Assembly: GCA_963809465.1 (NCBI GenBank)
Contig: CAWEJU010000015.1
Span: 398,295 to 462,294, forward strand
DNA from: an uncultured Actinomycetes bacterium
Lineage (GTDB): Bacteria > Actinomycetota > Thermoleophilia > Gaiellales > Gaiellaceae
Reading direction: 5' to 3'
DNA length: 64,000 nucleotides
Each line of letters opens with the position of its first letter. Within the stretch, counting starts at the first letter, position 1. Below the pieces are notes generated by a model. It made no database searches, had not been told where the DNA came from, and saw nothing but the letters and a program-made list of their open reading frames with translations. A program made the translations under genes and the position numbers. Shown here in pieces: positions 5,950 to 59,272 of the stretch.

Positions 5950-8487
5950 CTAGCCGCCGGCCTGAACGTACTCGGCGCGGTGCGCTTCCTTCAGCGTGGC
6001 CTGCGCCGCGGCGAGGCGCGCGAGCGGGACGCGGTACGGCGAGCAGCTCACGTAGTCGAGCCCGATGCGGTGGCAGAACTCCACCGAGCTCGGCTCGCCG
6101 CCGTGCTCGCCGCAGATGCCGAGGTGGATCTCCGGCTTCCTCTCCCTCCCGCGCTCGACCGCGATCCGCATCAGCTCGCCGACGCCGTCCTGGTCGAGCA
6201 CCTCGAACGGGTTCCGCTCGAGCACGCCGTCCTCGAGGTAGAAGGTGAGGAACTTGCCTTCCGCGTCGTCGCGGGACATCCCGAGGGTCGTCTGCGTGAG
6301 GTCGTTCGTGCCGAAGGAGAAGAAGTCGGCGACCTCGGCGATCTCGTCGGCGCGCAGGGCCGCGCGCGGCAGCTCGATCATCGTCCCGCAGAGGTACTCG
6401 AGCTCCGGCGCCTCCTCCTCCATCACGTGCTCGGTCAGCTCGCGCAGCCGGCGGAGCTCCTCACGGAAGCCGACGAGCGGGTGCATGATCTCGACGAGCG
6501 GCGCGTCGCCGCCTCGTTCCTGCACCGCCTTCGCCGCCCGCGCGATCGCGCGCACCTGCATCTCGTAGATCTCCGGCCACTGGATGCCGAGCCGGCAGCC
6601 GCGCGTGCCGAGCATCGGGTTCGACTCGGAGAGGGCACGGATCCGCTGCCGCATCCGCTCGTCGCGCGCCTCCTCGAGCGGCGGCAGGAACTCGTGCAGC
6701 GGCGGGTCGAGCAGCCGGATCGTCACCGGCAGGCCGGCCATGACCTCGAAGATCGCCTCGAAGTCGGACTGCTGGAAGGGGAGCAGCCGATCGAGCGCGT
6801 CGCGGCGGCCGCTCTCGTCGCGCGCGAGGATCATCTCCTGCACGACGGGGAGCCGCTCCTCGCCGAAGAACATGTGCTCGGTGCGGCAGAGCCCGATCCC
6901 CTGGGCGCCGAACTCGCGCGCTTTCGCCGCATCGTCCGCGTTGTCGGCGTTCGCGCGCACCTTGAGGCGGCGCAGCTCGTCGGCCCAGTCGAGGATCGTC
7001 TCGAAGTCCTCGTTGATCGCGGGTGGGACGAGCGGGACCTCGCCGACGATGACGCGTCCGGTGCCGCCGTCGATCGTGATCACGTCGCCCTCGCGCAGCT
7101 GGTTCCCGCCGATGCGGACGGTCTTCGCGCCCGTGTCGATGTCGAGGTCCTCGCAGCCGGCCACGCACGGTTTCCCCATGCCGCGGGCGACGACGGCCGC
7201 GTGCGACGTCATCCCGCCGTGCGCCGTAAGAACGCCCTTGGCCTGGATGAGGCCGTGGATGTCGTCGGGTGTCGTCTCCCAGCGGACGAGAATCACCGCC
7301 TCGCCGGCCTTGCCGCGCTCCGCGGCGCTGTCGGCGTCGAGGACGATCTTCCCGCACGCCGCGCCCGGCGAGGCGTTGAGGCCCTGCGCAGCGACCTCGA
7401 ACTGCGCGTCCTCGTCGAGCCGCGGGTGGAGAAGCTGATCGAGCTGTGCCGGATCGATCCGCATCACAGCTTCCTCCCGCTCGATCAGCCCGTCCGCACT
7501 CATGTCGACCGCGCACTTGATCGCGGCAGCCGCCGTCCGCTTTGCGGTGCGCGTCTGCAGGAGGTAGAGCCGCCCCTCCTCGACGGTGAACTCGATGTCC
7601 TGCATGTCGCGGTAGTGGCGCTCGAGCGCGTTCATCGTCTCGAGGAGCTGGTCGTACGCCTCCGGCAGCTGCTCGCGCAGCTCCACGAGCGGCTGCGGCG
7701 TGCGGACCCCGGCGACGACGTCCTCTCCCTGCGCGTTGACGAGGTACTCGCCGTAGACGCCCTGCTCACCGGTCGAGGGGTCGCGGGTGAAGCAGACGCC
7801 GGTCGCCGAGCCCTCGCCCTTGTTGCCGAACACCATCTGGACGACGTTGACGGCGGTGCCGAGGTCGTCGGAGATCCCGTACGTGCGCCGGTACATCTGC
7901 GCACGCGGCGTGTTCCACGAGTCGAACACGGCCGCGATCGCGCGCTGCAGCTGCTCTCGCGCGTCCTGCGGAAAGCCATGCCCGGTTTCCCGTTCGTAGA
8001 TCTCCCGGGCCCTCTCGACGGTGTCGTCGACGCTGAATATCTCGTGCGGAATCCCGTCGACGGTCTCGCCGAACATCTGGATCAGCCGGCGGTAGCAGTC
8101 CCGCGCGAACTCCTCGTTGCCCGTCGAACGCGCGAGCCCGGCGACCGACTCGTCGTTGAGCCCGACGTTGAGGATCGAGTCCATCATCCCCGGCATCGAG
8201 ATCGCTGCGCCCGAGCGGACGGAGACGAGCAGCGGGTCGCCCTCGTCGCCGAAGCGCTTTCCCGTGCTCTCTTCGAGCCGCTCGACGTGCTCGGCGACCT
8301 CCTCGTCGAGGCCCGCGACCTCGCCGCCGGAGGCCATGTAGGCGCGGCACGCGTCGGTCGTGATGGTGAAGCCGGCGGGTACGGGGATCCCGAGCTGGGT
8401 CATCTCCGCGAGCCCGATTCCTTTGCCCCCGAGGAGCTCCCGGCCGCCGTCGGCGGGCTCGTCGAAGTCGTAGACGTAGCGGGTCAT
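5950..8487 (-). CDS. ppdK: pyruvate, phosphate dikinase
   Basis: MTRYVYDF..GGKG..LAEM N-terminus, the phosphohistidine region GGMTSHAAVVARGMGKPCV, and a C-terminal PEP-utilising TIM barrel (CGEHGGEP). Confidence 0.95.
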   Translation of the reverse strand: MTRYVYDFDEPADGGRELLGGKGIGLAEMTQLGIPVPAGFTITTDACRAYMASGGEVAGLDEEVAEHVERLEESTGKRFGDEGDPLLVSVRSGAAISMPGMMDSILNVGLNDESVAGLARSTGNEEFARDCYRRLIQMFGETVDGIPHEIFSVDDTVERAREIYERETGHGFPQDAREQLQRAIAAVFDSWNTPRAQMYRRTYGISDDLGTAVNVVQMVFGNKGEGSATGVCFTRDPSTGEQGVYGEYLVNAQGEDVVAGVRTPQPLVELREQLPEAYDQLLETMNALERHYRDMQDIEFTVEEGRLYLLQTRTAKRTAAAAIKCAVDMSADGLIEREEAVMRIDPAQLDQLLHPRLDEDAQFEVAAQGLNASPGAACGKIVLDADSAAERGKAGEAVILVRWETTPDDIHGLIQAKGVLTAHGGMTSHAAVVARGMGKPCVAGCEDLDIDTGAKTVRIGGNQLREGDVITIDGGTGRVIVGEVPLVPPAINEDFETILDWADELRRLKVRANADNADDAAKAREFGAQGIGLCRTEHMFFGEERLPVVQEMILARDESGRRDALDRLLPFQQSDFEAIFEVMAGLPVTIRLLDPPLHEFLPPLEEARDERMRQRIRALSESNPMLGTRGCRLGIQWPEIYEMQVRAIARAAKAVQERGGDAPLVEIMHPLVGFREELRRLRELTEHVMEEEAPELEYLCGTMIELPRAALRADEIAEVADFFSFGTNDLTQTTLGMSRDDAEGKFLTFYLEDGVLERNPFEVLDQDGVGELMRIAVERGRERKPEIHLGICGEHGGEPSSVEFCHRIGLDYVSCSPYRVPLARLAAAQATLKEAHRAEYVQAGG

Positions 8488-8711
8488 GGGGCCGCAGATG
8501 TTGTCATAAGCAGGGCATCTTTCTGCGCTAGCCGCGGCGGGTCCCGGAACTCGGCCAGCCAGGCGAGCGTCCGCAGCCCGATCCAGACCGGGGTCAGCAG
8601 GACGTAGAAGATGATGTCGCCGACGAGCAGCGCCACTCCCCAAAGAGCCCAGTAGCGCAGTGGGATGGGCGGCTTGGCCTTCCGGACGGCGGGGCCGGGC
8701 TCCGCGGTCAC
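8484..8711 (-). CDS. small membrane protein (75 aa) translationally coupled between PDRP and ppdK
   Basis: GTG 8711 overlaps the PDRP TGA (GTGA). Its own TGA overlaps the ppdK ATG (ATGA). Hydrophobic stretch YWALWGVALLVGDIIFYVLLTPVWIGL. Confidence 0.45.
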   Translation of the reverse strand: MTAEPGPAVRKAKPPIPLRYWALWGVALLVGDIIFYVLLTPVWIGLRTLAWLAEFRDPPRLAQKDALLMTTSAAP

Positions 8712-9547
8712 CGTGCGGCCTGCGCCTTCGCCTCGCCTGCGCGTTCCTCGACGACGCGGAGGATGCGATGCGCCGTCTCCTCGATCGACAGCTCCGAGAT
8801 GTTGATCACCGGGCAACCGAGGCGGCGGTGGAGCTTCTTCGCCTGCTCGAGCTCCTCGTAGATCTCGGCGAGCTCGGCGTACTGGCGATTGCGAGACGGC
8901 GCCCCCATTGCGCGCACGCGTGCCCTGCGGATCTCGGCGAGCCGGTCCGGGTCGATCGTCAGGCCGACCACCTTGGCCTGGTCGATCTCGAACAGCTCCG
9001 GCGGCGGCTGGATGCCCTTCACGACCGGGACGTTCGCCGCCTTGTGGCCGAGGTAGCCGAGGTAGATCGAGAGCGGTGTCTTCGAAGTGCGCGAGACGCC
9101 GACGAGAACGACGTCCGCGTCGTGGAGACCGTGCGCGACCCCGTCGTCGTAGCGCACGGCGAACTCGATCGCCTCCATCCGCTTGAAGTAGGCGGAGTTG
9201 AGAGGCGGCCGCGACCCCGGCGTCATCTTCGCCGCCTGGCCCGAGACGCGAGCGACGGCGTCGATCGGCTGGCCGAGCAGGTCGCAGTAGTGGAGGCGCG
9301 CCCGCCGGCAGAGCGTGCGCATCGCCTCGCGGAGCTGCGGCTGGACGAGTGTGTAGACCACGACGGCGGGCCGGCCACGCATCCGGTTGACGGCGAGATG
9401 GAGGTCGTCCTCCGACTCGACGCGAGGATGGCGGATCTCGACGAACTCCTGATCCGGGAACTGCGCCTCGAGCGCCTGGACCAGCCGCGCTGCGGTCTCA
9501 CCGGTGGCGTCGGAGACGACATGGAGCTCGACCGGCGGGTTCGGCAT
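8708..9547 (-). CDS. pyruvate phosphate dikinase regulatory protein (DUF299 kinase/pyrophosphorylase)
   Basis: HVVSDATGETA..VLVGVSRTSKTPLS..IDPDRL motifs. Confidence 0.9.
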   Translation of the reverse strand: MPNPPVELHVVSDATGETAARLVQALEAQFPDQEFVEIRHPRVESEDDLHLAVNRMRGRPAVVVYTLVQPQLREAMRTLCRRARLHYCDLLGQPIDAVARVSGQAAKMTPGSRPPLNSAYFKRMEAIEFAVRYDDGVAHGLHDADVVLVGVSRTSKTPLSIYLGYLGHKAANVPVVKGIQPPPELFEIDQAKVVGLTIDPDRLAEIRRARVRAMGAPSRNRQYAELAEIYEELEQAKKLHRRLGCPVINISELSIEETAHRILRVVEERAGEAKAQAAR

Positions 9548-19959: not shown

Positions 19960-21554
19960 GGAACTCCTGTCCGCCGAGCATGCGTTCCAGCTCCGCCTTC
20001 CGCTCGTCCTCTCCGAGCTGCTCGATCCGCGTGTGGGTCGGCTCGCCCGGCGTCTTCTCGACCCGGAAGTGACGGTCGGCGAGAGCGGCGATCTGGGGCA
20101 GGTGCGTGATCGTCACGACCTGGGCATGCTCGGCGAGGCGCCGGAGGAGCCCGCCGACCGCATGCGCCGTCTCGCCGCCGATCCCCGCGTCGATCTCGTC
20201 GAACACGAGTGTGTCGCCGCCGCCCACGGCCGCGATCGCAAGGGCGATCCGTGAGAGCTCGCCGCCGGATGCTGTCTCCGCGACCGGAGCGAACGGAAGC
20301 CCCGCGTTCGGCCGGACGAGGAAGACCGCCTCGTCGCCGCCCGTCGACCCCGGACTCGTCCCGCTCACGCAGCTCGCAGACGAACTCGCCGTTCCCCATC
20401 CCGACGCCGCGAAGCTCGGCGGCGACCGCATCGGCGAACGCAGGCGCGGCCGCGTTTCGCTCCGCGCGCAGCTCGAGGGCCAGCGCGTCGACGCGCGCCT
20501 CGGCCTCTGCGAGCACGCGCGCGGCGACTTCAGCCGGATCGGATCCGTCCTCGAGGGCCGCAAGCTCGGCCCGCGCCTCCTCCCGCCGCGCGAGCAGCTC
20601 CTCGTACGTCGCGCAGCGGAAACGCCGCTTCGCCTCCGCGATCCGGTCGAGCTCGGCCTCGAGCTGCTCGAGGCGGCCCGGCTCGGCTTCGAGCGACGCG
20701 AGAAAGGAGTGCAGATCGGAGGCGGTCTCGCGCAGGCGGAGCTCGACGTCCCGCAGCTCGTCCCCCGCCTGCTGGAGCTCGGCCGCGAGCCGCTCGAGCG
20801 GCGCGACCGACCGCTCCGCGAGCCCGACGAGGCCGGCGGCTCCTTCGCCCTCCTCCGGTGCGAGCGCCGCGGCGGCCGCGGCAGCGCCGGCGGCCAGGTC
20901 GGCGACGTGCCGGTGCCGCTCGCGCTCGGTGCGGAGACGCTCCTCCTCCCCGGCATCCATGCCTTCGGTGTCCTCGACCAGCGCGCGCAGCTCGACGAGC
21001 CGGGTCTCGGCGAGCGCGGCGTTCGCCGTCAGCTCGTCGTGCCGCCGCCGCGCGCCCTGCAGGTCGCGCCACGCGTTCCGAGCGGCCACGCGACGGGCGA
21101 GCTGCTCCTCGCCGCAGAAGCGGTCGAGCACCTCGAGCTGATAGGACGGCCGCGCGAGCCGCCGCTGCTCGAACTGGCCCGACATCGCGAGCACGCGCTC
21201 GACCGAGGCGGCGACGTCCTCCCGGGCAGCCGCTCTTCCCCACGCGTAGGCGCGGGTGCGTCCGTCGGCGAAGACGCGCCGGGAGACGACGAGTGCGTCG
21301 TCGTCCTCAGGACGCAGCTCGTCCAGCTCCTCGAGGTCTTGTGGAAGGTCGAGCTCCGCCTCGACGTATGCCTCCTCGCCGGCGGCGCCGACGAACGAGT
21401 CGTCGCCCTTGGCGCCGAGGAGGAGGCCCAGCGCCTGGGCGAGGATCGTCTTGCCGGCGCCCGTCTCCCCCGTGATCGCGTTCAGGCCGGGCGCGAGCTC
21501 GAGCTCGGCCTCGCGGATGAGGACGAGGTTCTCGATGCGCAGCCGGCGGAGCAC
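19940..21554 (-). pseudogene. recN: DNA repair protein RecN, reading frame broken near 20336-20354
   Basis: The N-terminal part (LRIENLVLI..ITGETGAGKT..coiled coil..GEFVCELRERDESGVDG) and the C-terminal part (GDEAVFLVRPNAG..ASGGELSRIALA..LVFDEIDAGIGG) lie in frames offset by one nt. Total length is 1615 nt, which is not a multiple of 3. Confidence 0.8.
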
Positions 21555-21603
21555 GCCGTCGATCGTAGACGCGCGGCCCGACGCTGCCCATTGGCCGTTC
21601 CGG

Positions 21604-22371
21604 TCAGTGTTGCGAGGTGAATGTCTCGCGGTAGCGGCCGAAGAACGTCGTCTCCGGCAGTGTCGCGAGCAGGCTCCGCTGCTCGCCGAGCCGGATCGAC
21701 AGCGCCCCGTCGGGCTGGAGGTCGCCGCTCCGATGCCCGTCGGCAAGGACGGCGGCGCCGACGTCCGGGGTCGCGTTCCGCACCATCAGCTCCGCGCCGC
21801 GCGGCACGACGAGCGGCCGCGCATCGAGCGAGTGCGGCGCGATGAACGTGATCGCCATCGCGTCGAGCCCACGCACGAGGACGGGGCCGCCGTTCGAGAG
21901 GTTGTAGGCCGTCGAGCCCGACGGCGTCGAGCAGATCATCCCGTCGCACGAGACGACGCCGAGGTCCTCGCCGGCGATCGCCCAGCCGAGCTCGATCATC
22001 CTCCCCAGCGTCGAGCTCGTGACCACGACGTCGTTGACGGCCACGAAGCCGTCGCCGTCGAGCTGGGCCTCGAGCGTGGGCTGCTCGATCGTCCGGTACT
22101 CGCCGGCGAAGACCCGCGCGAGGTCGACCTCGAGCCGTTCCGGCGCGATCGAGGCGAGGAAGCCGACTCGGCCGAAGTTGATCCCGATCACGGGAACGCC
22201 CGTTCCGAGCAGCCGCGAGAGCGTCCGGAGGATCGTCCCGTCGCCGCCCACCGCGACCGCGAGCTGCGCGCGCTCCGGCTCGTCGACGAGCTGCACGCCG
22301 GCGCCTTCCGCGACCGCCCGCACCCGTGCCACGGCATCGCGCACGTCGACGCGGCCGTGGGCGACGAGCAT
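21604..22371 (-). CDS. nadK: NAD+ kinase
   Basis: GGDGT.LR..GINFGRVGFL..TPSGSTAYNLS motifs. The start is set at the ATG just after the tlyA stop. Confidence 0.9.
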   Translation of the reverse strand: MLVAHGRVDVRDAVARVRAVAEGAGVQLVDEPERAQLAVAVGGDGTILRTLSRLLGTGVPVIGINFGRVGFLASIAPERLEVDLARVFAGEYRTIEQPTLEAQLDGDGFVAVNDVVVTSSTLGRMIELGWAIAGEDLGVVSCDGMICSTPSGSTAYNLSNGGPVLVRGLDAMAITFIAPHSLDARPLVVPRGAELMVRNATPDVGAAVLADGHRSGDLQPDGALSIRLGEQRSLLATLPETTFFGRYRETFTSQH

Positions 22372-24804: not shown

Positions 24805-24875
24805 TGTTCCCGTTCCCGGTGCCGGCAAAGCCGGCACCTTCGCTCCCTGATGAGCTCCGTCGAGCCTACGCTCAC
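24805..24875 (-). repeat. copy 1 of the ~70-nt two-hairpin intergenic element
   Basis: Aligns with copies at 48297-48366 and 40319-40389. It starts at the nusB stop and ends 13 nt before GTG 24804. Confidence 0.85.
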
Positions 24876-25255
24876 GCGCCCTCCTCCCGCACGAGCTTGC
24901 CGAGGATCCCGTTCACCAGCCTCGCAGCATCCTCGGATGCGTAGCGCTTCGCAAGCGTCACCGCCTCGTCGAGGACGACCTCGATCGGCACCTCCCCCTC
25001 GTCGAGCTCCTCGAGCGCGACGCGAAGGACGTTGCGCTCGACGGCGCCCAGCCGGTCCGCGGTCCATTCGTCGGAGGCGGAGGTGATCCGCGAGTCGAGC
25101 TCGGCCGCGTGCCCGGTCACCGCGCCGGTGAGGTGCCGCGTATAGGCGTCGACCTCCCCTTCGTAGAGCGAGCCGAGCGGCTTGCCGGTCACATCCCACT
25201 GGAAGAGCATGAAGACGGCGGCCCGGCGCGCCTCGCGGCGGCTGATGGCGCTCAC
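24872..25255 (-). CDS. nusB: transcription antitermination factor NusB
   Basis: REARRAAVFMLFQWD..ERNVLRVALEEL..AKRY..VNGILG motifs. GTGA overlap with asp23. Confidence 0.9.
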   Translation of the reverse strand: MSAISRREARRAAVFMLFQWDVTGKPLGSLYEGEVDAYTRHLTGAVTGHAAELDSRITSASDEWTADRLGAVERNVLRVALEELDEGEVPIEVVLDEAVTLAKRYASEDAARLVNGILGKLVREEGA

Positions 25256-25560
25256 GGACGGTCGAGCTCCTCGACGGTGACGTGCACCGCCTCGACCTCG
25301 ACGTCGCACATCCGCGCGAGCGCGTCGGCGACCCGCTCCTGCACGGCAGCCGACACCTCGGGGAGAACGCGGCCGTACACGACCGCGAGCTGCAGCTCGG
25401 CTCGGGCGCGGCCGTCCTCGAGCTCGACCCCGAGCCGCCGCCGGCCCTTGCAGAGCCGGGCACCGTCGACCGACGCGACCGCCCGCCGCACGATCTCCGT
25501 CAGAGCCGCCTCGCTCACGCGCACCGAGCCGCCACTCTCCTGGACGAGGACCCGGGTCAC
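25252..25560 (-). CDS. Asp23/Gls24 family envelope stress protein
   Basis: VSEAALTEIVRRAV..V..V.V.V pattern. GTGA overlap with accC. Position is conserved (yqhY-like) between accC and nusB. Confidence 0.75.
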   Translation of the reverse strand: MTRVLVQESGGSVRVSEAALTEIVRRAVASVDGARLCKGRRRLGVELEDGRARAELQLAVVYGRVLPEVSAAVQERVADALARMCDVEVEAVHVTVEELDRP

Positions 25561-26918
25561 GGCCCGGCGAGCGCCGGCAACCGCGATCCCGCCTCCTCGA
25601 GAAAGGAGGTCGAGTACTCGCCGCTCCGGAACTCGTCGCTGTCGAGAATGTCGAGGAGAACGTCGCGCGTCGTCGGCACGCCCTCGATCTCGAACTCGCT
25701 CAGCGCCCGCAACGCGCGCGCGATCGCGAGCTTGCGGCTGGCGTCGTGGACGATCAGCTTTGCGATCAGCGAGTCGTAGTACGGCGTGATGGTCCTTCCC
25801 TCCTCGACGAAGGTGTCCACCCGCACGCCGGGCCCGAGCGGAGGTCGGAAACGGGTCACCGGCCCGGGGCTCGGGCGGAAGTCCTCCAGCGGGTCCTCCG
25901 CGTTGATGCGCACCTCGATCGCGTGCCCCAGGCGCGGGCCGGAGCGGCCGCCGTGCGCAAGCCTCTCGCCGGCCGCGATCCGCACCTGCTCGCGCACGAG
26001 GTCGATCGAGTTGACGAGCTCGGTCACCGGATGCTCGACCTGCAGCCGCGCATTCAGCTCGATGAACGCGAACGAGCCGTCGGGCCCGACCAGGAACTCG
26101 AACGTGCCGGCGTTGCGGTAGCCGATCCGCTGGCACGCGCGCTCGGCCGCCGCCTCCATCTCCTCGCGCAGCTCGTCGTCGAGCGCGGGCGACGGCGACT
26201 CCTCGACCAGCTTCTGGTGGCGGCGCTGGATCGAGCACTCGCGCTCTCCGCAGGTCAGGACGTTGCCGTGCCCGTCGCAGAGCACCTGGATCTCGATGTG
26301 CCGCGCGGGCGCGATGACCTTCTCCACATACAGCGTCCCGTCGCCGAAGGCGGCCTGCGCCTCGTGCGAGGCGCGCTCGTAGAGGCTCGCGAGATCGGCG
26401 GGATCCCGGACGATGCGCATCCCCTTCCCGCCGCCTCCCGCGGCCGCCTTGAGCAGGATCGGAAAGCCAAGCTCCTCCGCTGCCGCGCTCGCAGCGTCGA
26501 CGCTCGCCGTGCCCTCGGTGCCCGGCACGAGCGGCACGCCGGCAGCCCGCATCTCCGCCTTCGCCTGCGCCTTGTCGCCCATGCGCTCCATCACGTCCGC
26601 GGTGGGGCCGATGAAGACGAGGCCGTTCTCCTCGCACGCGCGCACGAAGGCGGCGTTCTCGGAGAGGAAGCCGTAGCCCGGGTGGACGGCCTCGCAGCCG
26701 GTCGTCTCGGCAGCGGTGACGAGCGCCGGGATGTTGAGGTAGCTCTCAGCGGCCGGCGGCGGGCCGATCCGGACGGAGCGGTCGGCAAGACGCACGTGGA
26801 GCGAGCCCTCGTCCGCCGTCGAGTACACCGCGACCGCCTCGACGCCGAGCTCGTGCAGCGCTCGAATCACGCGGACAGCGATCTCGCCACGGTTCGCTAC
26901 GAGGACACGGGAGAACAC
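25557..26918 (-). CDS. accC: acetyl-CoA carboxylase biotin carboxylase subunit
   Basis: LVANRGEIAVRVIRA N-terminus, ATP-grasp motifs, 453 aa. Confidence 0.95.
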   Translation of the reverse strand: MFSRVLVANRGEIAVRVIRALHELGVEAVAVYSTADEGSLHVRLADRSVRIGPPPAAESYLNIPALVTAAETTGCEAVHPGYGFLSENAAFVRACEENGLVFIGPTADVMERMGDKAQAKAEMRAAGVPLVPGTEGTASVDAASAAAEELGFPILLKAAAGGGGKGMRIVRDPADLASLYERASHEAQAAFGDGTLYVEKVIAPARHIEIQVLCDGHGNVLTCGERECSIQRRHQKLVEESPSPALDDELREEMEAAAERACQRIGYRNAGTFEFLVGPDGSFAFIELNARLQVEHPVTELVNSIDLVREQVRIAAGERLAHGGRSGPRLGHAIEVRINAEDPLEDFRPSPGPVTRFRPPLGPGVRVDTFVEEGRTITPYYDSLIAKLIVHDASRKLAIARALRALSEFEIEGVPTTRDVLLDILDSDEFRSGEYSTSFLEEAGSRLPALAGP

Positions 26919-26935: not shown

Positions 26936-27451
26936 GTGCAGAATCCGCCCATGACGACCAACATGGAACGCGCCTTCGAGGCGCGCCCCGAGGTGTTCGC
27001 GGCCTGGCAGCAGTTGAACGGCGCGATCAAGGCCGGGATGGACTTGCGCCGCTACGAGCTCGCGACACTCGCGGCAGCCCGCAGGTTGCACTCCAGCTAC
27101 TGCAGCCTGATGCACGGGAAGGTGCTGCGCGAGCAGTTCGACGAGCCGGTGGCCGACATCGCACGCGATCGGCGCTCGGCCCCGCTCGACGCGGTCGACG
27201 TCGCGGTCATGGACCTCGCCGAGCGCGTCGTGGACGACGCCACGTCCATCGGCGAGGCCGACCTCCAGCCCCTCCGCGATCTCGGGCTCTCCGACGAGGA
27301 GATCATGGATGTCGTCCTCGCCGCCGCAGCCCGCTGCTTCTTCTCGAAGACGCTCGACGCGCTCGGAGTCTTGCCGGATGCGAGCCTGGCAGAGCTCGAA
27401 CCGGAGCTGCTCGAGGTGCTCGTCGTCGGCCGGCCGATCGCGGAGGAATAG
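26936..27451 (+). CDS. carboxymuconolactone decarboxylase (AhpD-like) family protein
   Basis: CMD-family pattern (RRYELATLAAARRLHSSYCSLMHG..LSDEEIMDVV). The start is ambiguous (GTG 26936, ATG 26951 or ATG 26963). Confidence 0.65.
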   Translation: MQNPPMTTNMERAFEARPEVFAAWQQLNGAIKAGMDLRRYELATLAAARRLHSSYCSLMHGKVLREQFDEPVADIARDRRSAPLDAVDVAVMDLAERVVDDATSIGEADLQPLRDLGLSDEEIMDVVLAAAARCFFSKTLDALGVLPDASLAELEPELLEVLVVGRPIAEE

Positions 27452-27453
27452 CC

Positions 27454-28020
27454 ATGGATGTCCCGGAAGCACAGCTCGAGGAGACGGAACACGGACTGGT
27501 GTACAAGGGCGACGGCTGGTTCGTCGTCAACGCGCAGGAGGTCCGCTGGCGCGAGTGGGAGGGCATCGGCCGCTCGACGAACTTCGGCGGCGACACGATC
27601 TTCGACCAGCTCGGGGTCGGCATCGACGTGCTCGGGCCGGGGCAGCCGATGTCGATGTACCACTGGGAGAGCGACCAGGAGGACTTCCTCGTCCTCTCGG
27701 GCACGGCGACGCTGATCGTTGAGGGCGAAGAGCGGCCGCTCCGGCAGTGGGACTTCGTCCACTGCCCGCCCTACACCGAGCACACGATCGTCGGCGGCCG
27801 CGAGGGCTGCGTCGTCTTCGGCGTCGGCGCCCGCGAGCGCCACACCGAGATCGGCCCCGACGGGGAGCGTCGGGGCAAGGACGGCGAGAGCGAGTACACG
27901 GTGAACGAGACCGCGCTCAAGCACGGCGCCGGGATCGAAGCCGGGACGCCGCAGAACGAGGCCTACTCACGGTTCCCGCCGCGCAGGTACGCCCGCTACG
28001 GCGGTTGGCTGGAGGACTAG
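27454..28020 (+). CDS. cupin domain protein (paralogue of 2547-3125)
   Basis: GGAGGAA SD. WFVVN..EDFLVLSG..LIVEGEERPLRQWDFVHCPPYTEHTIVG. Confidence 0.7.
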   Translation: MDVPEAQLEETEHGLVYKGDGWFVVNAQEVRWREWEGIGRSTNFGGDTIFDQLGVGIDVLGPGQPMSMYHWESDQEDFLVLSGTATLIVEGEERPLRQWDFVHCPPYTEHTIVGGREGCVVFGVGARERHTEIGPDGERRGKDGESEYTVNETALKHGAGIEAGTPQNEAYSRFPPRRYARYGGWLED

Positions 28021-29820
28021 CTAGAGCGCCGGGGGCCCACCCGCGAGCGGCTCGAGCTCGAACAGGAGCTGTCCGAACTCGACCGCCGCGGCGTTCTCGG
28101 CGTGGACGCCGCGCACGACCCCCTCGACGTCCGCCTTCACCTCGTTCATCAGTTTCATGGCCTCGAGGATGCACAACGTCTGGCCCGGCGCGACCACGTC
28201 GCCGACCTCGACGAAGGGCGGTGCGCCCGGCTGCGGGGCCCGGTAGAACGTTCCGACCATCGGCGATTCGACGCGGACGAGCGCACCGGTGAGAGGAGTC
28301 GCGCCCGGCAGCTCCGGCTCCGTGAGGGCGAGCGGCGCCTCGCCCGGCCCGGCCGCGGGAAAGTCGGGCGTCGAGCGGACCGAGATCCGCATGCCGTCCT
28401 CCTCGATCGTCACCTCGCCGATGCCGGACTCCTGCACGATCCGCACGATCTCCTGGACGCGCTGGGAACGGCCTTCGCTCATCCCCACGAGGTCGTCGTC
28501 GCGGCGGCCGCGGCCGCGGATCCCGCGGAGGAGCCGCTCGGCATCCTCGGGGAAGAGACCGAGCAGGAGGAGCTCCTCCTCGCTCGTCGCGACGTCACCG
28601 GCGCGTTCGCGCACCTCGTCGAGCGGCGGCGTCACGTCCTCCTCGCTCTCCGGGTCGGCGGTGAGCTGGACGACCCGCACGAGGGCGGGGTCGATGGGTG
28701 CAGGCGGAGTGCCGAAGGCACCGGACACGAGGCTGCGCACCTCGTCGACGACGGCGAGGTAGCGGCTCGCGGACAGGACGTTGATGATCGCCTGCGAGGC
28801 GAGGACCTGGCCGATCGGCGACGCAAGGGGCGGCCAGCCGGTCTCGGCCCGGATCCGGTCGAGCTCCTCCAGCACCTCGTCGAGCCTGTCGCCGGCGCCC
28901 TCCGCGTGCAGTGAGTGGTCGATCCCGGCGACGACACTCGCCGGCAGGTCGTGACGCGCCGCCAGCACCGCGATGCGCGGGACGAGCGGCGTCACGAGCT
29001 CGTCGCCGATGTGCTCGTCGAGGAGGTCTGTCGCCTCCCAGAGGGCCTCGACGTCCACGCCCGGGTCGAGGCCGGTGCCGCTGAGCGCCTCGGCGAGCGC
29101 CTCACCCGAGACGCGGTGGAGGGTCAGCGCGAGCGGATAGATCGTGCAGGCGATGAGCTGCGCTCCCGCCCGGGCGGCCGCGAGCGCGGCGGCGAGCGCG
29201 CTGCCGCCGGCTCCCTGGAGGTAGATCCCGACCGGAAGCCCGCTCGCCTCGCCGAGCGCCTGCACGAGCTGCTCGGCGGTATGCGGTTGCAGCGAGCCGG
29301 TCGGATCGTGGAGGAGGACGCGCACCGCGCCGAGCTCGGGGAGCATCCGCGCGCGCTCGATCAGCGTCTCGATCTCGCCGGTCCTTCCGGGGCTGTAGAC
29401 GAGGCCGGCCTCGAAGTCGCGGTCGGCGGCGACGATCGCCTCCGCGGCCTCGCGCAGGTTGGAGACGTCGTTGAGCGGGTCGTGCAGCCGGAAGACGTCG
29501 ATCCCGTTCTCCGCGGCCGACGCCACGAAGCGGCGGGAAAAGTCGGCATCGACCGGCCGCGAGCCGACGAGGAAGCGTCCGCGCAGCGCGAGCCCCAGCG
29601 GCGTCTTGACACGCGCTTTCAGCGCTCGGATTCGCTCCCACGGGCTCTCGACCCCGCGCTTGACGGCCGCGTCGAAGCAGCCGCCGCCCGAGACCTCCAG
29701 ATACGCGAAGCCGGCCCGGTCGAGGATCTCCGCGAGCCGAAGCTGCTCCGCCGCCGGAACGCGCCCCGCCAGCGGCTCCTGGCCGAGCAGGCGGATCGTC
29801 GTGTCGGCTAGGGAAGGCAC
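28021..29820 (-). CDS. OadA/PycB-like carboxyltransferase domain (metal ligands substituted) fused to an AccB-type biotin carboxyl carrier
   Basis: The N-terminal ~430 aa align with the oxaloacetate decarboxylase alpha / pyruvate carboxylase B carboxyltransferase domain. The C-terminus SPMVGTFYRAPQPGAPPFVEVGDVV..LCILEAMKLMNEV is AccB-like. Confidence 0.75.
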   Translation of the reverse strand: MPSLADTTIRLLGQEPLAGRVPAAEQLRLAEILDRAGFAYLEVSGGGCFDAAVKRGVESPWERIRALKARVKTPLGLALRGRFLVGSRPVDADFSRRFVASAAENGIDVFRLHDPLNDVSNLREAAEAIVAADRDFEAGLVYSPGRTGEIETLIERARMLPELGAVRVLLHDPTGSLQPHTAEQLVQALGEASGLPVGIYLQGAGGSALAAALAAARAGAQLIACTIYPLALTLHRVSGEALAEALSGTGLDPGVDVEALWEATDLLDEHIGDELVTPLVPRIAVLAARHDLPASVVAGIDHSLHAEGAGDRLDEVLEELDRIRAETGWPPLASPIGQVLASQAIINVLSASRYLAVVDEVRSLVSGAFGTPPAPIDPALVRVVQLTADPESEEDVTPPLDEVRERAGDVATSEEELLLLGLFPEDAERLLRGIRGRGRRDDDLVGMSEGRSQRVQEIVRIVQESGIGEVTIEEDGMRISVRSTPDFPAAGPGEAPLALTEPELPGATPLTGALVRVESPMVGTFYRAPQPGAPPFVEVGDVVAPGQTLCILEAMKLMNEVKADVEGVVRGVHAENAAAVEFGQLLFELEPLAGGPPAL

Positions 29821-29889: not shown

Positions 29890-30297
29890 ATGCACTCGGC
29901 GGAGGGATGGTGGGCCTTCGGCCTCGCGAGCGTCGGTGTTCTCTGGACGGCCGCGCTCGTTCCCGGCGCGTTCTTCTTTCCCGCCTACAGCGGTGAGGCG
30001 TCGTCGGCAAGCGGCGGGACGATGCACACGACCGACACCCTCGTCGGGGTGAACGGGCTCTGGGTCGTCGTGCCTTTCGTGCTGTTTCTGGCGCTCAGCG
30101 TCGCCGCATGGGTCGGTCTTCACGCAAGTTGCGCAACAGGAAGCCGTCGGGGGAGAACAGTCGGCAACGTCGCAGCCGGGCTCCTCGCCGCAGCCGCAGT
30201 GTTCACCTTTTCAGCCGGATTCTTCGCCCTTCCCGCGGCGGTACTGGTCATCGTCGCCGCGGTGCTGACGCCTGCTCGTCCAACCCGCGAGGCGTAG
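29890..30297 (+). CDS. hypothetical membrane protein (about 4 TM segments)
   Basis: 135-aa ORF with four hydrophobic segments. No family recognised. Confidence 0.55.
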   Translation: MHSAEGWWAFGLASVGVLWTAALVPGAFFFPAYSGEASSASGGTMHTTDTLVGVNGLWVVVPFVLFLALSVAAWVGLHASCATGSRRGRTVGNVAAGLLAAAAVFTFSAGFFALPAAVLVIVAAVLTPARPTREA

Positions 30298-30374: not shown

Positions 30375-30941
30375 CTACGCGCGCGAGATGTAGCGCTTCT
30401 CACGGGGATCGACCTTGAGCCGATCCCCCACGTTCACGAAGAGCGGCACCTGGACCACGCCGCCCGTCTCGAGCGTCGCGGGCTTCGTCACGTTGGAGAC
30501 CGTGTCGCCCTTGACGCCGGGCTCGGTCTCGACGACGGTCAGCTCCACCGACGCCGGCATCTGCACGCCCGACGGCTTTCCGTTGACGGCGAGCACCTGT
30601 ACCGTCGCGTTCGGCTGCATGAACGGAAGCTCGTCCGCCAGGTCGGCATGCGGGACGGCGAATTGCTCGTACGTCTCCGAGTCCATGAAATGCACCTCGG
30701 AGCCGTCGTCGTAGAGGTACTGGACGTTCTTCGTCTCGGTGTGCACGCGCGGGAACTTCTCCCCGGCGCGGAACGTGCGGTCGACGACGGCGCCCGCGTC
30801 GAGGCTCTTGAGCTTCGTCCGGACGAACGCGCCACCCTTGCCGGGCTTCACGTGCTGGAACTCGACGATTCGCCAGACCTTGCCGTCGAGCTCGATGTGC
30901 ATCCCGTTCTTGAAGCTGTTCGTGTCTACCGTCTCGGCCAC
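30375..30941 (-). CDS. efp: elongation factor P
   Basis: FKNGMHIELDGKVWRIVEFQHVKPGKGGAFVRTKLK is the canonical EF-P N-terminus. Confidence 0.95.
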   Translation of the reverse strand: MAETVDTNSFKNGMHIELDGKVWRIVEFQHVKPGKGGAFVRTKLKSLDAGAVVDRTFRAGEKFPRVHTETKNVQYLYDDGSEVHFMDSETYEQFAVPHADLADELPFMQPNATVQVLAVNGKPSGVQMPASVELTVVETEPGVKGDTVSNVTKPATLETGGVVQVPLFVNVGDRLKVDPREKRYISRA

Positions 30942-58654: not shown

Positions 58655-59272
58655 GTGACGGTTCGCAAGTCGTCCTACCGCTCGCTCGCCTCACTGGAGC
58701 GCGACCTGTCGCGTTGCCGCGCGTGCGCCGAGGCCGGCTACCCCCTCGAGTCCCTCCCCGTGCGCGCACCCGGCGCGGAGCAGCGCGCGTACCTGTTCGG
58801 GCAGGCGCCGGGCGTGATCGAGGGAGAGCAGCGGCTGCCGTGGAGAGGACGCGCGGGCCGCACGCTCCGTAGTTGGCTCGGCCTCGAGGAGGAGGACTTC
58901 TACAGGACGTTCTACTGCGCCTCGGTCACACGCTGCTATCCGGGCCGCGCGCCATCCGGCCGCGGCGACCGCACACCCACGCCGCGCGAGCAGGATCTCT
59001 GCTCGTTCTGGCGCGACTGGGAGCTCGCGCTGCTGCGCCCGCGGCTGATCGTCACGGTCGGCGGGCTCGCCCTGCGCCGCTTGCTCGGGCTCGCCTCGTT
59101 GACGCCGTGCGTCGGCGAGCGGTACGAGCTCGACGGGACGCCGGTCGTCCCGCTTCCGCACCCGTCCGGCGCGAGCGGCTGGCTCAACGATCCGGCGAAC
59201 CGCGAGCGGCTCGCGGTGGCCATTACCCGCGTCCGCGAGGACCTGTCTGCCGTCTACCCTCAGAAGCGATGA
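58655..59272 (+). CDS. uracil-DNA glycosylase superfamily protein (family 4/5-like)
   Basis: C.AC...G..FGQAPG and HPSG..W motifs. Confidence 0.7.
   Translation: MTVRKSSYRSLASLERDLSRCRACAEAGYPLESLPVRAPGAEQRAYLFGQAPGVIEGEQRLPWRGRAGRTLRSWLGLEEEDFYRTFYCASVTRCYPGRAPSGRGDRTPTPREQDLCSFWRDWELALLRPRLIVTVGGLALRRLLGLASLTPCVGERYELDGTPVVPLPHPSGASGWLNDPANRERLAVAITRVREDLSAVYPQKR

What the first reader, a model, noticed from the sequence alone, without database searches (positions are those of the whole stretch)
28021..29820. Carboxyltransferase domain with all four metal ligands substituted, fused to an AccB-type biotin carrier
The N-terminal ~430 aa align by eye with the OadA / PycB / transcarboxylase-5S carboxyltransferase domain, but each metal-site residue I recall from that family is replaced. 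LRDAHQS becomes IRLLGQE (Asp to Leu). The carbamylated-Lys motif KDM.G becomes HDPTG. H.H becomes IYLQGA (His to Tyr and His to Gln). The C-terminus is not the OadA-type biotin domain. It closely resembles E. coli AccB (SPMVGTFYR.P.P....F.EVG..V..G..LCI.EAMK.MN). The gene sits where accB normally precedes accC, separated from accC by an inverted cupin plus CMD gene pair. This looks like a biotin carrier for AccC carrying a pseudo-enzyme domain, perhaps a scaffold or regulatory module.
Basis: partly seen in the sequence, partly recalled or inferred. Interest (0 to 1): 0.65.

Follow-up and report, generated by a model that had tools for sequence, protein, structure and literature searches.

The report
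Biotin carrier with dead carboxyltransferase domain
In this soil actinobacterium (family Gaiellaceae), the biotin-carrier protein of the acetyl-CoA carboxylase operon has a 435-residue pyruvate-carboxylase-type domain whose catalytic centre is gone but which is still strongly conserved, so it is a previously undescribed pseudoenzyme module derived from active fusion proteins found in related bacteria.

Summary
Window 28021-29820 (-) encodes a 599-aa protein in two parts. Residues 1-435 are a PycB/OadA/5S-type carboxyltransferase (CT) fold. Residues 453-599 are a complete AccB, with the N-domain, linker, thumb and biotinyl Lys556. All four metal-centre residues are replaced: Asp to Leu11, carbamyl-Lys to His171, and His-x-His to Tyr200/Gln202. 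Biotin-pocket residues are also lost.

These substitutions occur in all 15 Gaiellales orthologues examined (58-91% identical). The domain is nevertheless under strong purifying selection. Its dN/dS against the closest orthologue is 0.05-0.08, lower than accC or efp.

The fusion itself is not new. Other Thermoleophilia, Coriobacteriia and Clostridia carry the same CT-AccB protein with an intact active site, at the same efp-[fusion]-accC-nusB position. Intact CT domains are 53-62% identical across phyla. The Gaiellaceae CT is only about 34% identical to any of them, while its AccB half and AccC diverged normally.

Other lineages also lost the site, with different substitutions: a second Thermoleophilia clade, a Bacillota MAG and a Hydrogenedentota MAG.

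Best reading: this is a working AccC-partnered biotin carrier whose CT domain is kept as a non-catalytic scaffold or ligand-binding module. The cupin+CMD pair is an insertion found only in this genome.

The parts
28021..29820 (-). Whole gene: 599-aa pseudo-CT-AccB fusion protein (GTG start at 29820, stop 28021-28023)
   Evidence: ORF list; Pfam and NCBIfam; the start is supported by the N-termini of 15 orthologues (MP.L.DTTIR)
29011..29820 (-). Residues 1-270: degenerate DRE-TIM (HMGL-like) barrel of the carboxyltransferase domain
   Evidence: Pfam HMGL-like 4-266; eight beta-strands in the AF2 model, pLDDT above 90; Foldseek hits to 2nx9, 1rqb and 5ks8
28516..29010 (-). Residues 271-435: C-terminal helical part of the CT domain (PYC_OADA)
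   Evidence: Pfam PYC_OADA 299-432; alignment to 5ks8_C extends to residue 434
29776..29796 (-). Motif I9-R-L-L-G-Q-E15 in place of (L)RD(A/G)HQS. The metal-ligand Asp becomes Leu11 (codon 29788-29790). Arg10 and Gln14 are kept.
   Evidence: Leu in 14 of 15 orthologues and Val in 1
29302..29310 (-). H171-D172-P173 in place of K-D-M. The carbamylated, metal-bridging Lys becomes His (Asn in 3 of 15 orthologues).
29215..29223 (-). Y200-L201-Q202 in place of H-x-H. The first His becomes Tyr (His kept in 3 orthologues). The second His becomes Gln in all 15.
28807..28824 (-). A333-S334-P335-I336-G337-Q338 in place of V-T-P-x-S-Q. The position of the essential Thr (RePC T882) is Ser here and Ala or Pro in orthologues. 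The biotin-contacting Ser becomes Gly337.
   Evidence: The mapping to T882/T908 rests on the motif and on coordinate arithmetic. T882 is described as essential in PMC5895798.
28921..28950 (-). D291-LPASVVAG-I300 in place of the invariant QVPGGM(I/L)(S/T)NL loop. The loop is remodelled and partly relaxed.
28372..28464 (-). Residues 453-483: AccB N-terminal domain (QRVQEIVRIVQESGIGEVTIEEDGMRISVRS)
   Evidence: TIGR00531 aligned from profile position 5; 4hr7_B alignment from residue 453; mean conservation 0.82 within the clade
28285..28371 (-). Residues 484-512: Pro/Ala-rich flexible linker
   Evidence: pLDDT below 50 for 484-511; low conservation, 0.43
28045..28284 (-). Residues 513-592: AccB-type biotinyl domain. 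The thumb is at 519-541. The biotinylation motif is E553-A-M-K556-L-M-N-E (Lys556 codon 28153-28155).
   Evidence: Pfam Biotin_lipoyl; matches to 1bdo, 1a6x and 8uxz; pLDDT 91-95; this is the only E-A-M-K motif in the 64-kb window
25557..26918 (-). accC, the biotin carboxylase and presumed partner. It is 453 aa and has no C-terminal Ala-rich BT helix.
   Evidence: Pfam Biotin_carb_N/CPSase_L_D2/Biotin_carb_C; NCBIfam PRK08591 at 628.7 against a cutoff of 597. accC follows the fusion gene in all 16 Gaiellales loci, separated by about 0-190 nt.
26936..28020 (+). CMD-family gene (26936-27451) and cupin gene (27454-28020), inserted antisense between the fusion gene and accC. They are not part of the system.
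   Evidence: Pfam; no homologue in any of 30 related loci; native codon bias
30375..30941 (-). efp, the upstream anchor of the conserved aroQ-pepP-efp-[accB]-accC-(asp23)-nusB-xseB-ispA cluster
   Evidence: synteny by tblastn in more than 70 loci
24872..25575 (-). asp23-like gene (25252-25575) and nusB (24872-25309), the downstream anchors of the cluster

Best explanation
The gene is the Gaiellaceae form of accB. It encodes the biotin carboxyl carrier that works with the neighbouring biotin carboxylase AccC.

Shown:
- Residues 453-599 are a complete AccB: the AccB N-domain, a flexible Pro/Ala linker, and a thumb-bearing biotinyl domain with Lys556.
- Residues 1-435 keep the fold of the pyruvate-type carboxyltransferase domain of PycB/OadA/5S. 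They have lost the Asp/carbamyl-Lys/His/His metal centre and several biotin-pocket residues.
- These substitutions are fixed across the clade.
- The domain evolves as slowly as, or more slowly than, AccC and EF-P.
- Intact versions of the same fusion occupy the same locus in other Thermoleophilia, Coriobacteriia and Clostridia.

Inferred:
- The ancestor was a PycB-like beta subunit that used AccC as its biotin carboxylase. It also served as the cell's AccB.
- In Gaiellaceae the pyruvate-carboxylating activity was lost. Carboxybiotin on Lys556 is now delivered only to a separate carboxyltransferase encoded elsewhere, either AccA/AccD or an acyl-CoA CT.
- The dead CT domain is kept because the complex is built on it. 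CT domains form the dimers that organise every known pyruvate carboxylase holoenzyme.
- Its remodelled and then frozen pocket may still bind a ligand or dock the BCCP.
For: Dead site:
- Pairwise HMM alignments to three solved homologues.
- A multiple alignment with 16 active homologues.
- The T882-equivalent position is relaxed, and the S885 and Y628 equivalents are lost.
- T882A alone abolishes activity in RePC (PMC5895798).

Fold kept:
- Pfam covers the full barrel.
- The AF2 model has pLDDT 86.5 and TM 0.86 to OadA.

Carrier intact:
- TIGR00531 aligns over the whole AccB profile.
- The EAMK motif and thumb are present.
- dN/dS is 0.03.

Selection on the dead domain:
- dN/dS is 0.053 for the barrel and 0.077 for the C-terminal part, against 0.18 for accC and 0.155 for efp, measured against L001. 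The barrel's dN is at or below accC's in all six pairs.
- The former catalytic face is more conserved (0.87) than the rest of the barrel (0.78, p = 1.6e-4). It is also enriched in residues switched to a new invariant state.

Descent from active fusions:
- The aroQ-pepP-efp-[fusion]-accC-nusB synteny is conserved in about 28 intact Thermoleophilia loci, 10 Clostridia loci and 5 Coriobacteriia loci.
- Acceleration is specific to the CT domain. Intact-versus-intact identity is 53-62%, against about 34% for Gaiellaceae versus intact. The AccB half (47-54%) and AccC (52-57%) diverged normally.

The BCCP must serve another client:
- Every lineage with a degenerate CT keeps the biotinyl Lys and thumb.

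CT dimers as organisers:
- PMC5059739.
Against: - No carboxyltransferase partner (AccA/AccD or PccB-type) lies in the 64-kb window.
- Whether this is the only AccB in the genome could not be checked.
- A scaffold role is inferred, not shown.
- The high conservation of the remodelled pocket goes beyond what a pure scaffold obviously needs. It includes new invariant polar residues Glu15, Arg82, Arg167, Gln202 and His235, and nearly invariant His113. It also includes retained Arg10, Gln14 and Arg80, which hold pyruvate in active enzymes.
- In this genome accC is separated from the gene by 1.1 kb of antisense genes, so co-transcription is uncertain here.
Confidence: 0.6

Rival explanations
1. Regulatory sensor. 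The remodelled pocket no longer catalyses anything. It binds a metabolite, such as pyruvate, oxaloacetate or another keto or carboxylic acid. Alternatively it parks the tethered (carboxy)biotin. Either way it tunes how much carboxybiotin reaches the real carboxyltransferase. It would be a built-in allosteric module of acetyl-CoA carboxylase.
For: - Arg10, Gln14 and Arg80, the equivalents of the pyruvate-binding Arg548/Gln552/Arg621 of R. etli PC, are invariant.
- The former catalytic face is the most conserved part of the barrel, and 12 face positions switched to new invariant residues.
- Q82 to R and A115 to P recur in several independently degenerate lineages.
Against: - No ligand is known.
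- The biotin-pocket loop (PGGM) and the T882 position are relaxed, which argues against BCCP docking there.
- Strand-end residues are also structurally important, so their conservation alone is not proof of binding.
Confidence: 0.15
2. Neo-functionalised enzyme. The domain catalyses a different, possibly metal-independent or differently liganded, carboxyl transfer to an unknown acceptor. AccC plus this protein would then be a self-contained novel carboxylase.
For: - Strong purifying selection on the remodelled pocket.
- New conserved His, Glu and Arg residues (Glu15, His113, His171, His235, Arg82, Arg167) could in principle form a new site.
Against: - The candidate new ligands are not invariant. 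His171 is Asn in 3 of 15 orthologues and Leu or Asp in P0123 and P0125. His113 is Asp in L009. Tyr200 alternates with His.
- The Thr882 position varies between Ser, Ala and Pro.
- Other degenerate lineages carry quite different residue sets. That fits loss better than a shared new chemistry.
Confidence: 0.12
3. Functionless relic. The CT domain is a decaying remnant that simply has not been deleted yet.
For: The catalytic residues are gone, and sequence divergence accelerated in the CT domain only.
Against: - dN/dS is 0.05-0.08, below accC and efp.
- Within-clade identity of 67% equals that of AccC.
- There are no frameshifts or truncations in 15 orthologues spanning family-level divergence.
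- The fold is confidently predicted.
Confidence: 0.05
4. Still an active PycB or OadA. The alignment is misleading, or other residues take over metal binding.
For: JGI annotations call the family 'oxaloacetate decarboxylase alpha subunit'. Whole-protein similarity to PycB is high.
Against: - Three independent alignment methods agree at all four ligand positions with high posterior probability.
- Scores fall below every curated family cutoff.
- No OAD beta or gamma membrane subunits lie nearby.
- Leu, Tyr and Gln cannot replace the Asp and His ligands.
Confidence: 0.03

Closest known systems
Beta subunit (PycB) of bacterial two-subunit pyruvate carboxylase, e.g. Methylobacillus flagellatus (PDB 5KS8; PMC5059739)
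   Same: - Same order of a CT domain followed by a C-terminal biotinyl domain.
- Best sequence match (8.7e-64) and best fold match (5e-42).
- Partnered with a separate biotin carboxylase subunit encoded next to it.
- CT domain of the DRE-TIM plus PYC_OADA type.
   Different: - The metal centre (Asp, carbamyl-Lys, His, His) and biotin-pocket residues are replaced.
- There is no BT-like beta-sheet with the HGE motif. A full AccB N-domain and linker sit in its place.
- The biotinyl domain has the AccB thumb.
- The partner AccC is 453 aa and lacks the Ala-rich C-terminal helix that builds the BT-like domain.
AccB, the biotin carboxyl carrier protein of multi-subunit acetyl-CoA carboxylase (E. coli; PDB 4HR7, 1BDO; TIGR00531)
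   Same: - The C-terminal 147 residues align with the whole of AccB: N-domain, Pro/Ala linker, thumb and the EAMKLMN biotinylation motif.
- The gene occupies the accB slot of the conserved efp...accB-accC...nusB cluster.
   Different: - It carries an extra 435-residue N-terminal domain.
- As a whole protein it scores just under the TIGR00531 cutoff (113.9 against 115.2).
Intact CT-AccB fusion proteins of other Thermoleophilia, Coriobacteriia and Clostridia. These are uncharacterised. Databases call them PycB, OadA or AccB.
   Same: Identical architecture and identical genomic position. The AccB half is 47-54% identical and the neighbouring AccC 52-57% identical.
   Different: They keep RD(A/G)HQS, KDM, HxH, PGGMxSN and VTPxSQ. 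Their CT domains are 53-62% identical to each other across phyla, but only about 34% identical to the Gaiellaceae CT.
OadA carboxyltransferase domain (V. cholerae, PDB 2NX9) and the transcarboxylase 5S subunit (P. shermanii, PDB 1RQB)
   Same: Same fold: TM 0.86 to OadA and 0.82 to 5S, rmsd 3.3-3.6 A, 25-29% identity.
   Different: Those are active metalloenzymes. No OAD membrane subunits or 12S/1.3S partners are present here.
Plant BADC proteins, which are non-biotinylated BCCP-like subunits that regulate heteromeric ACCase. This is an analogy only. It rests on my own knowledge plus the abstract of PMC12706156.
   Same: A catalytically disabled relative of a carboxylase component is retained inside the acetyl-CoA carboxylase system.
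   Different: In BADC the carrier is the disabled part, because it has no biotinyl Lys. Here the carrier is intact, and the disabled part is a fused carboxyltransferase domain of the pyruvate type.

Membership tests
PycB / OadA / 5S pyruvate-type carboxyltransferase | HMGL-like TIM barrel followed by the PYC_OADA domain | tested here: met
   Pfam hits above the gathering scores; fold match TM 0.82-0.86
PycB / OadA / 5S pyruvate-type carboxyltransferase | Divalent-metal centre: Asp of the RD motif, carbamylated Lys of KDM, and the two His of HxH | tested here: not met
   Leu11, His171, Tyr200 and Gln202 in the window, and equivalent changes in all 15 orthologues. The ligand identities come from my knowledge of the 5S, OadA and PC structures.
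PycB / OadA / 5S pyruvate-type carboxyltransferase | Essential Thr (RePC T882) and the biotin-pocket Ser in the V-T-P-x-S-[KQ] motif | tested here: not met
   A-S334-P-I-G337-Q. Position 334 varies between Ser, Ala and Pro across orthologues. Gly337 is present in 14 of 15. The mapping is by motif and arithmetic, not by a printed alignment to RePC.
PycB / OadA / 5S pyruvate-type carboxyltransferase | Score above the curated family cutoffs | tested here: not met
   PRK09282 at 362 against 402; TIGR01108 at 302 against 756; PRK14041 at 231 against 734
PycB / OadA / 5S pyruvate-type carboxyltransferase | Carboxyl transfer between biotin and pyruvate or oxaloacetate | not testable with these tools
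   This needs an enzyme assay.
Bacterial two-subunit pyruvate carboxylase (MfPC type) | BT-like domain: a beta-sheet with the HGE motif in the beta subunit, plus an Ala-rich C-terminal helix in a roughly 471-aa alpha subunit | tested here: not met
   The HGE region is present only in the gammaproteobacterial sequences of the alignment. The fusion has the AccB N-domain there instead. AccC is 453 aa and ends ...EEAGSRLPALAGP.
AccB (BCCP of acetyl-CoA carboxylase, TIGR00531) | N-terminal domain, Pro/Ala linker and C-terminal biotinyl domain aligned end to end | tested here: met
   TIGR00531 profile positions 5-155 of 156 align to residues 454-590. The score of 113.9 is 1.3 bits under the whole-protein cutoff. 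4hr7_B matches at 8e-23.
AccB (BCCP of acetyl-CoA carboxylase, TIGR00531) | Biotinylation motif E-A-M-K-(L/M) and the thumb insertion | tested here: met
   E553-A-M-K556-L-M-N-E. The thumb TFYRAPQPGAPPF aligns with those of AccB-type sequences and is absent from OadA-type BCCPs.
AccB (BCCP of acetyl-CoA carboxylase, TIGR00531) | Gene immediately upstream of accC in the conserved cluster | tested here: met
   All 16 related Gaiellales loci have accC about 0-190 nt downstream. In the window itself a 1.1-kb insertion intervenes.
AccB (BCCP of acetyl-CoA carboxylase, TIGR00531) | Small stand-alone protein of about 150-170 aa | tested here: not met
   599 aa, with a 435-aa N-terminal extension
AccB (BCCP of acetyl-CoA carboxylase, TIGR00531) | Biotinylated in vivo, and delivers CO2 to the ACC carboxyltransferase as the cell's only AccB | not testable with these tools
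   No CT gene and no second biotinyl motif occur in the 64-kb window.

The most novel reading that the evidence does not exclude
The CT-AccB fusions form a third, undescribed class of two-subunit biotin carboxylase. In this class one AccC/AccB pair feeds two carboxyltransferases: the fused pyruvate CT and a separate acetyl-CoA CT. In Gaiellaceae, and independently in other lineages, the fused CT has been converted into a keto-acid-sensing allosteric module. It would gate acetyl-CoA carboxylase according to central-carbon status.
Probability: 0.15. Interest if true: 0.75.

Novelty: new variant of a known kind. Interest (0 to 1): 0.55.

Why it matters
Gaiellales are among the most abundant soil actinobacteria. 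More than 6,000 near relatives of this protein turned up in metagenomes. Their annotations conflict: 'oxaloacetate decarboxylase alpha subunit', 'acetyl-CoA carboxylase BCCP' and 'biotin/lipoyl-containing protein'. The first name implies an activity the protein cannot have. Metabolic reconstructions that read it as an anaplerotic or Na+-pumping enzyme are therefore wrong.

For enzymology it offers a natural, strongly conserved pseudo-carboxyltransferase attached to the carrier of acetyl-CoA carboxylase, and the loss has happened more than once. It also points to an uncharacterised family of intact PycB-AccB fusions. These replace the BT-like domain of known two-subunit pyruvate carboxylases with the AccB N-domain. 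They may share one biotin carboxylase and carrier between pyruvate and acetyl-CoA carboxylation.

Tried and rejected
- The look-up of encoding contigs for the window protein found nothing on record.
- AlphaFold with a shallow alignment of sequences at least 88% identical failed (pLDDT 43.5). A diverse alignment then worked.
- dN/dS for orthologues less than about 80% identical is uninformative. dS plateaus near 0.5 under the extreme GC3 bias. Only the L001 pair, and dN comparisons, were used.
- A Biopython bootstrap timed out and was replaced by my own neighbour-joining code.
- The CT-domain tree groups the two dead Thermoleophilia clades at 100%. The AccC tree never does (0%), and the substitutions differ. 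I treat the CT grouping as probable long-branch attraction but cannot exclude a common origin.
- I first placed the catalytic Thr in the PGGMxSN loop. Coordinate arithmetic on the S. aureus and R. etli PC hits, together with the VTPSSK motif, showed it lies at residue 334. This was corrected.
- Seven literature searches found no description of a dead CT-AccB protein or of the AccB-type PycB fusion.
- The 135-aa ORF at 29890-30297 (+) upstream of the gene has no Pfam hit, poor codon bias (GC3 0.76) and no room in orthologous loci. It was rejected as a partner.
- An OAD Na+ pump reading was rejected because there are no beta or gamma membrane subunits.
- I could not devise a scan that lists every biotinyl protein of one Gaiellaceae genome with the available tools.
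Full report
**The object.** Window 28021-29820 (minus strand) is one ORF of 599 codons. It starts at a GTG, with an in-frame TAG four codons upstream. Its codon bias is that of a real gene of this roughly 71% G+C genome (GC1/2/3 = 0.79/0.48/0.92).

Pfam finds an HMGL-like TIM barrel at residues 4-266, covering the whole 260-position profile. It also finds the PYC_OADA domain (299-432) and a biotinyl domain (517-589). NCBIfam ranks pyruvate carboxylase subunit B first, but below its cutoff (362 against 402 bits). The oxaloacetate decarboxylase alpha score is far below cutoff (302 against 756). The acetyl-CoA carboxylase BCCP model TIGR00531 aligns end to end (profile positions 5-155 of 156) with residues 454-590, at 113.9 bits against a cutoff of 115.2.

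The best solved relatives are these:
- the beta subunit of the two-subunit pyruvate carboxylase of Methylobacillus flagellatus (5ks8_C, 8.7e-64)
- the OadA carboxyltransferase domain (2nx9)
- the transcarboxylase 5S subunit (1rqb)
- E. coli AccB (4hr7_B, 8e-23), for residues 453-587

An AlphaFold model built on a diverse alignment is confident (mean pLDDT 86.5, pTM 0.73):
- The CT domain is above 90.
- The AccB N-domain (449-482) is about 60-69.
- The linker (484-511) is disordered.
- The biotinyl domain is 91-95.

The model superposes on OadA at TM 0.86 and rmsd 3.3 A, and on 5S at TM 0.82.

**The active site.** The printed HMM alignments to three solved enzymes agree with a MAFFT alignment containing 16 active homologues. 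The table uses R. etli PC (RePC) numbering for the active enzymes.

| Active enzymes | Window protein | Note |
|---|---|---|
| R-D-(A/G)-H-Q-S | R10-L11-L12-G13-Q14-E15 | metal-ligand Asp becomes Leu |
| K-D-M | H171-D172-P173 | carbamylated Lys becomes His |
| H-x-H | Y200-L201-Q202 | both His lost |
| Q-V-P-G-G-M-x-(S/T)-N-L | D-L-P-A-S-V-V-A-G-I | invariant loop remodelled |
| V-T-P-x-S-Q | A-S334-P-I-G337-Q | carries the essential Thr (RePC T882) and the biotin-contacting Ser |
| Tyr of L-V-G-Y (RePC Y628) | Ser87 | biotin-pocket residue lost |

T882A alone abolishes activity in RePC (PMC5895798).

The equivalents of RePC Arg548, Gln552 and Arg621 (Arg10, Gln14, Arg80) are kept. RePC residue numbers and roles are from my own knowledge of the family. 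They are backed by the PDB entry titles T882A, T908A, Y628A and A610T and by PMC5895798 and PMC5059739. The placement of T882 at residue 334 rests on the motif and on coordinate arithmetic, not on a printed alignment.

**Who has it.** The nearest genomes are Gaiellaceae/Gaiellales MAGs (class Thermoleophilia, Actinomycetota). Sixteen loci carry orthologues that are 58-91% identical. All 15 full-length ones show the same substitutions:
- IR(L/V)L(G/S)QE
- (H/N)DP
- (Y/H)xQ, with the Gln invariant
- SGGG in place of WGGA
- ALRGR in place of LLRGQ
- FRLHDPLND in place of FRVFDALND
- PIGQ in place of PTSQ

The family is heavily sampled in soil metagenomes, with 6,372 proteins at E <= 1e-10 among 8,000 candidates. 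JGI names it 'oxaloacetate decarboxylase alpha subunit'. NCBI names it 'acetyl-CoA carboxylase biotin carboxyl carrier protein' or 'biotin/lipoyl-containing protein'.

**Genomic position.** The gene sits in the cluster aroQ-pepP-efp-[gene]-accC-(asp23)-nusB-xseB-ispA. In all 16 Gaiellales loci accC starts about 0-190 nt after the gene. Only in the window are a cupin gene and a carboxymuconolactone-decarboxylase-family gene (CMD) wedged, antisense, between the two. Even the 91%-identical relative L001 lacks them, and no related locus holds a homologue. They are an incidental insertion.

In one MAG (L035) the reading frame runs straight on into accC, giving 1,056 aa. This is either a real triple fusion or a long-read error.

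The AccC here passes the NCBIfam biotin carboxylase model (628.7 against 597). It is 453 aa and lacks the Ala-rich C-terminal helix of the alpha subunit of Gram-negative two-subunit PCs.

The window holds no other biotinylation motif. It holds no carboxyltransferase or pyruvate carboxylase gene.

**The architecture is inherited from active enzymes.** The same protein occupies the same efp...accC-nusB slot in three other groups:
- about 28 other Thermoleophilia/Actinomycetota MAGs
- Coriobacteriia (Eggerthellaceae, Adlercreutzia)
- spore-forming Clostridia (Desulfosporosinus, Desulfitobacterium, Thermincola, Syntrophomonas, Peptococcaceae)

In each case it consists of a CT domain, the AccB N-domain, a linker and a thumb-bearing biotinyl domain. 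There the CT domain is intact: RD(A/G)HQS, KDM, HxH, PGGMxSN and VTPxSQ are all present.

The closest intact representative is 40% identical overall (P0134). Its relatives include a Thermoleophilia MAG (L081).

Gammaproteobacterial and archaeal PycB differ. They have a plain biotinyl domain without a thumb. The bacterial ones also have the HGE-containing BT-like sheet described for MfPC (PMC5059739).

The AccB-type fusions are thus a third architectural class of PycB-like proteins. In them the AccB N-domain stands where the BT-like domain is. I found no paper describing this class.

**Evolutionary signature of a pseudoenzyme.** Mean pairwise identities are as follows.

| Comparison | CT domain | AccB half | AccC |
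|---|---|---|---|
| Intact versus intact, across phyla | 53-62% | about 50% | 53-58% |
| Gaiellaceae versus any intact group | 34-35% | 47-54% | 52-57% |
| Within Gaiellaceae | 67% | 71% | 69.5% |

The CT domain is the best-conserved part of intact fusions. In Gaiellaceae it alone diverged abnormally, and the divergence has since stopped.

Against the closest orthologue, dN/dS values are:
- 0.053 for the barrel
- 0.077 for the C-terminal CT part
- 0.031 for the biotinyl domain
- 0.18 for accC
- 0.155 for efp

The barrel's dN is at or below that of accC in all six pairs tested.

Within the CT domain (residues 1-440), positions invariant in active enzymes behave as follows in the clade:
- 29 have switched to a different clade-invariant residue.
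- 59 are retained.
- 20 are relaxed.

Within the barrel, the switched positions are enriched at the strand-end catalytic face (12 of 37 against 7 of 56, p = 0.03). That face remains more conserved than the rest of the barrel (0.87 against 0.78, p = 1.6e-4).

So the pocket was remodelled and then frozen. The biotin-pocket loop and the T882 position are among the relaxed sites.

**Recurrence.** An exhaustive HMMER search of 1.8 billion cluster representatives showed further CT-AccB proteins with degenerate sites and different substitutions:
- A second Thermoleophilia clade (L158/L159, P0176, P0183, P0228) has RSL, K-TA and DxD/DxN.
- A Bacillota MAG protein (P0160), together with the related P0188 of unknown taxon, has lost the carbamyl-Lys to Met.
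- A Hydrogenedentota MAG protein (P0174), together with the related P0165 of unknown taxon, has LTD/IND and HxR.
- A low-G+C lineage (P0158).

All of them keep the biotinyl Lys and the thumb.

In an AccC tree the second Thermoleophilia clade nests among intact lineages and is never sister to Gaiellaceae (0% of 200 bootstraps). The CT tree joins the two long branches at 100%, and long-branch attraction is likely. I therefore count at least two losses within the class as likely, not proven. Some substitutions recur across the degenerate lineages: LRGQ to LRGR, FDALND to xDPLND, and PTSQ to PIGQ.

**How it most likely works.**

Shown:
- an intact AccB-type carrier
- an intact AccC next to it in relatives
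- a CT fold without its catalytic apparatus
- purifying selection on that fold

Inferred:
- BirA biotinylates Lys556.
- AccC, bound through the AccB N-domain, carboxylates the biotin. (The role of that domain in binding AccC is known from E. coli work and comes from my own knowledge.)
- The carboxybiotin cannot be discharged on the fused domain. It goes to a separate carboxyltransferase encoded elsewhere.

One argument supports the view that the carrier has such a second client, and already had it in the ancestor. Every lineage that lost the CT site kept a highly conserved carrier. That would be pointless if pyruvate carboxylation were its only job.

The dead domain is probably retained because the complex is organised by it. 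CT-CT dimers are a structural backbone of both single-chain and two-subunit pyruvate carboxylases (PMC5059739; PMC5895798).

The strongly conserved, re-charged pocket carries new Arg82 and Arg167, Glu15, nearly invariant His113 and invariant His235. It retains Arg10, Gln14 and Arg80. This leaves room for a ligand-sensing or regulatory role, which is my main rival and the most novel reading. A new catalytic activity is less likely. The candidate new ligands vary among orthologues, and the other degenerate lineages use different residues.

**What remains untested.**
- Whether this is the sole AccB of the genome.
- Which carboxyltransferase it serves.
- Whether dead-CT genomes carry another anaplerotic enzyme.
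- Whether the protein is biotinylated and binds AccC.

There is one weak pointer. The pattern scan was exhaustive for the T-type motif WQVVPDEM. It recovered about 28 intact Thermoleophilia copies, none from an assembly that carries the dead form.

**Verdict.** The finding is real. The protein is a new, catalytically dead variant of a known kind of protein. It descends from an uncharacterised but widespread PycB-AccB fusion.

Noticed in passing
window 26936-28020 (+): A CMD-family gene (26936-27451) and a cupin gene (27454-28020) are inserted antisense between the fusion gene and accC. This occurs only in this genome. The cupin stop and the fusion-gene stop abut with no spacer (TAG|CTA, 28018-28023). 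The CMD start is 17 nt from the divergent accC start. accC must therefore be transcribed either from inside these genes or by read-through that produces antisense RNA. Both genes have native codon bias (GC3 0.92-0.94).
   Followed up: partly
L035 10001-13168: In this Gaiellaceae MAG the fusion ORF has no stop codon and continues in frame into accC (1,056 aa, CT-AccB-AccC). It is either a genuine triple fusion or a long-read assembly error. Several metagenome proteins (P0171, P0207, P0257) also run from the fusion into accC, but they are visibly frameshifted.
   Followed up: no
L081 6001-8248; L082 6001-8257: Two high-G+C MAGs, one Thermoleophilia and one Actinomycetota, have an intact CT domain. 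Their carrier is altered (SKWVATFY thumb region, biotin motif E-M-M-K-M). They have no accC at the locus, and the fusion gene is followed directly by nusB.
   Followed up: no
L161, L162, L163 (match starts at 6001): These otherwise intact Thermoleophilia CT domains read RDAPQS. The His of RDxHQS is replaced by Pro. This may be an early step of degeneration or a tolerated variant.
   Followed up: no
P0225 (463 aa, metagenome): This is a degenerate CT domain (LASGPW.., MDS, SFSAL) with no biotinyl domain at all. A free-standing pseudo-CT therefore also exists.
   Followed up: no
window 5950-9547 (-): Pyruvate phosphate dikinase (5950-8643) lies next to its bifunctional regulatory kinase/pyrophosphorylase (8708-9547). 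This is relevant to how the organism handles pyruvate and PEP without a PycB activity.
   Followed up: no
window 20106-21620 (+): A 504-aa ORF with gene-like codon bias (GC3 0.86) has no Pfam match.
   Followed up: no
window 62922-63986 (-): A 354-aa protein has three matched DUF4389 stretches. It sits next to two ABC transporter ATPase/permease fusion genes (58873-62946).
   Followed up: no
public annotations of P0002-P0120, P0284-P0299: JGI/IMG names this dead-site family 'oxaloacetate decarboxylase (Na+ extruding) subunit alpha'. That is very probably a systematic mis-annotation, and it affects thousands of soil metagenome proteins.
   Followed up: partly
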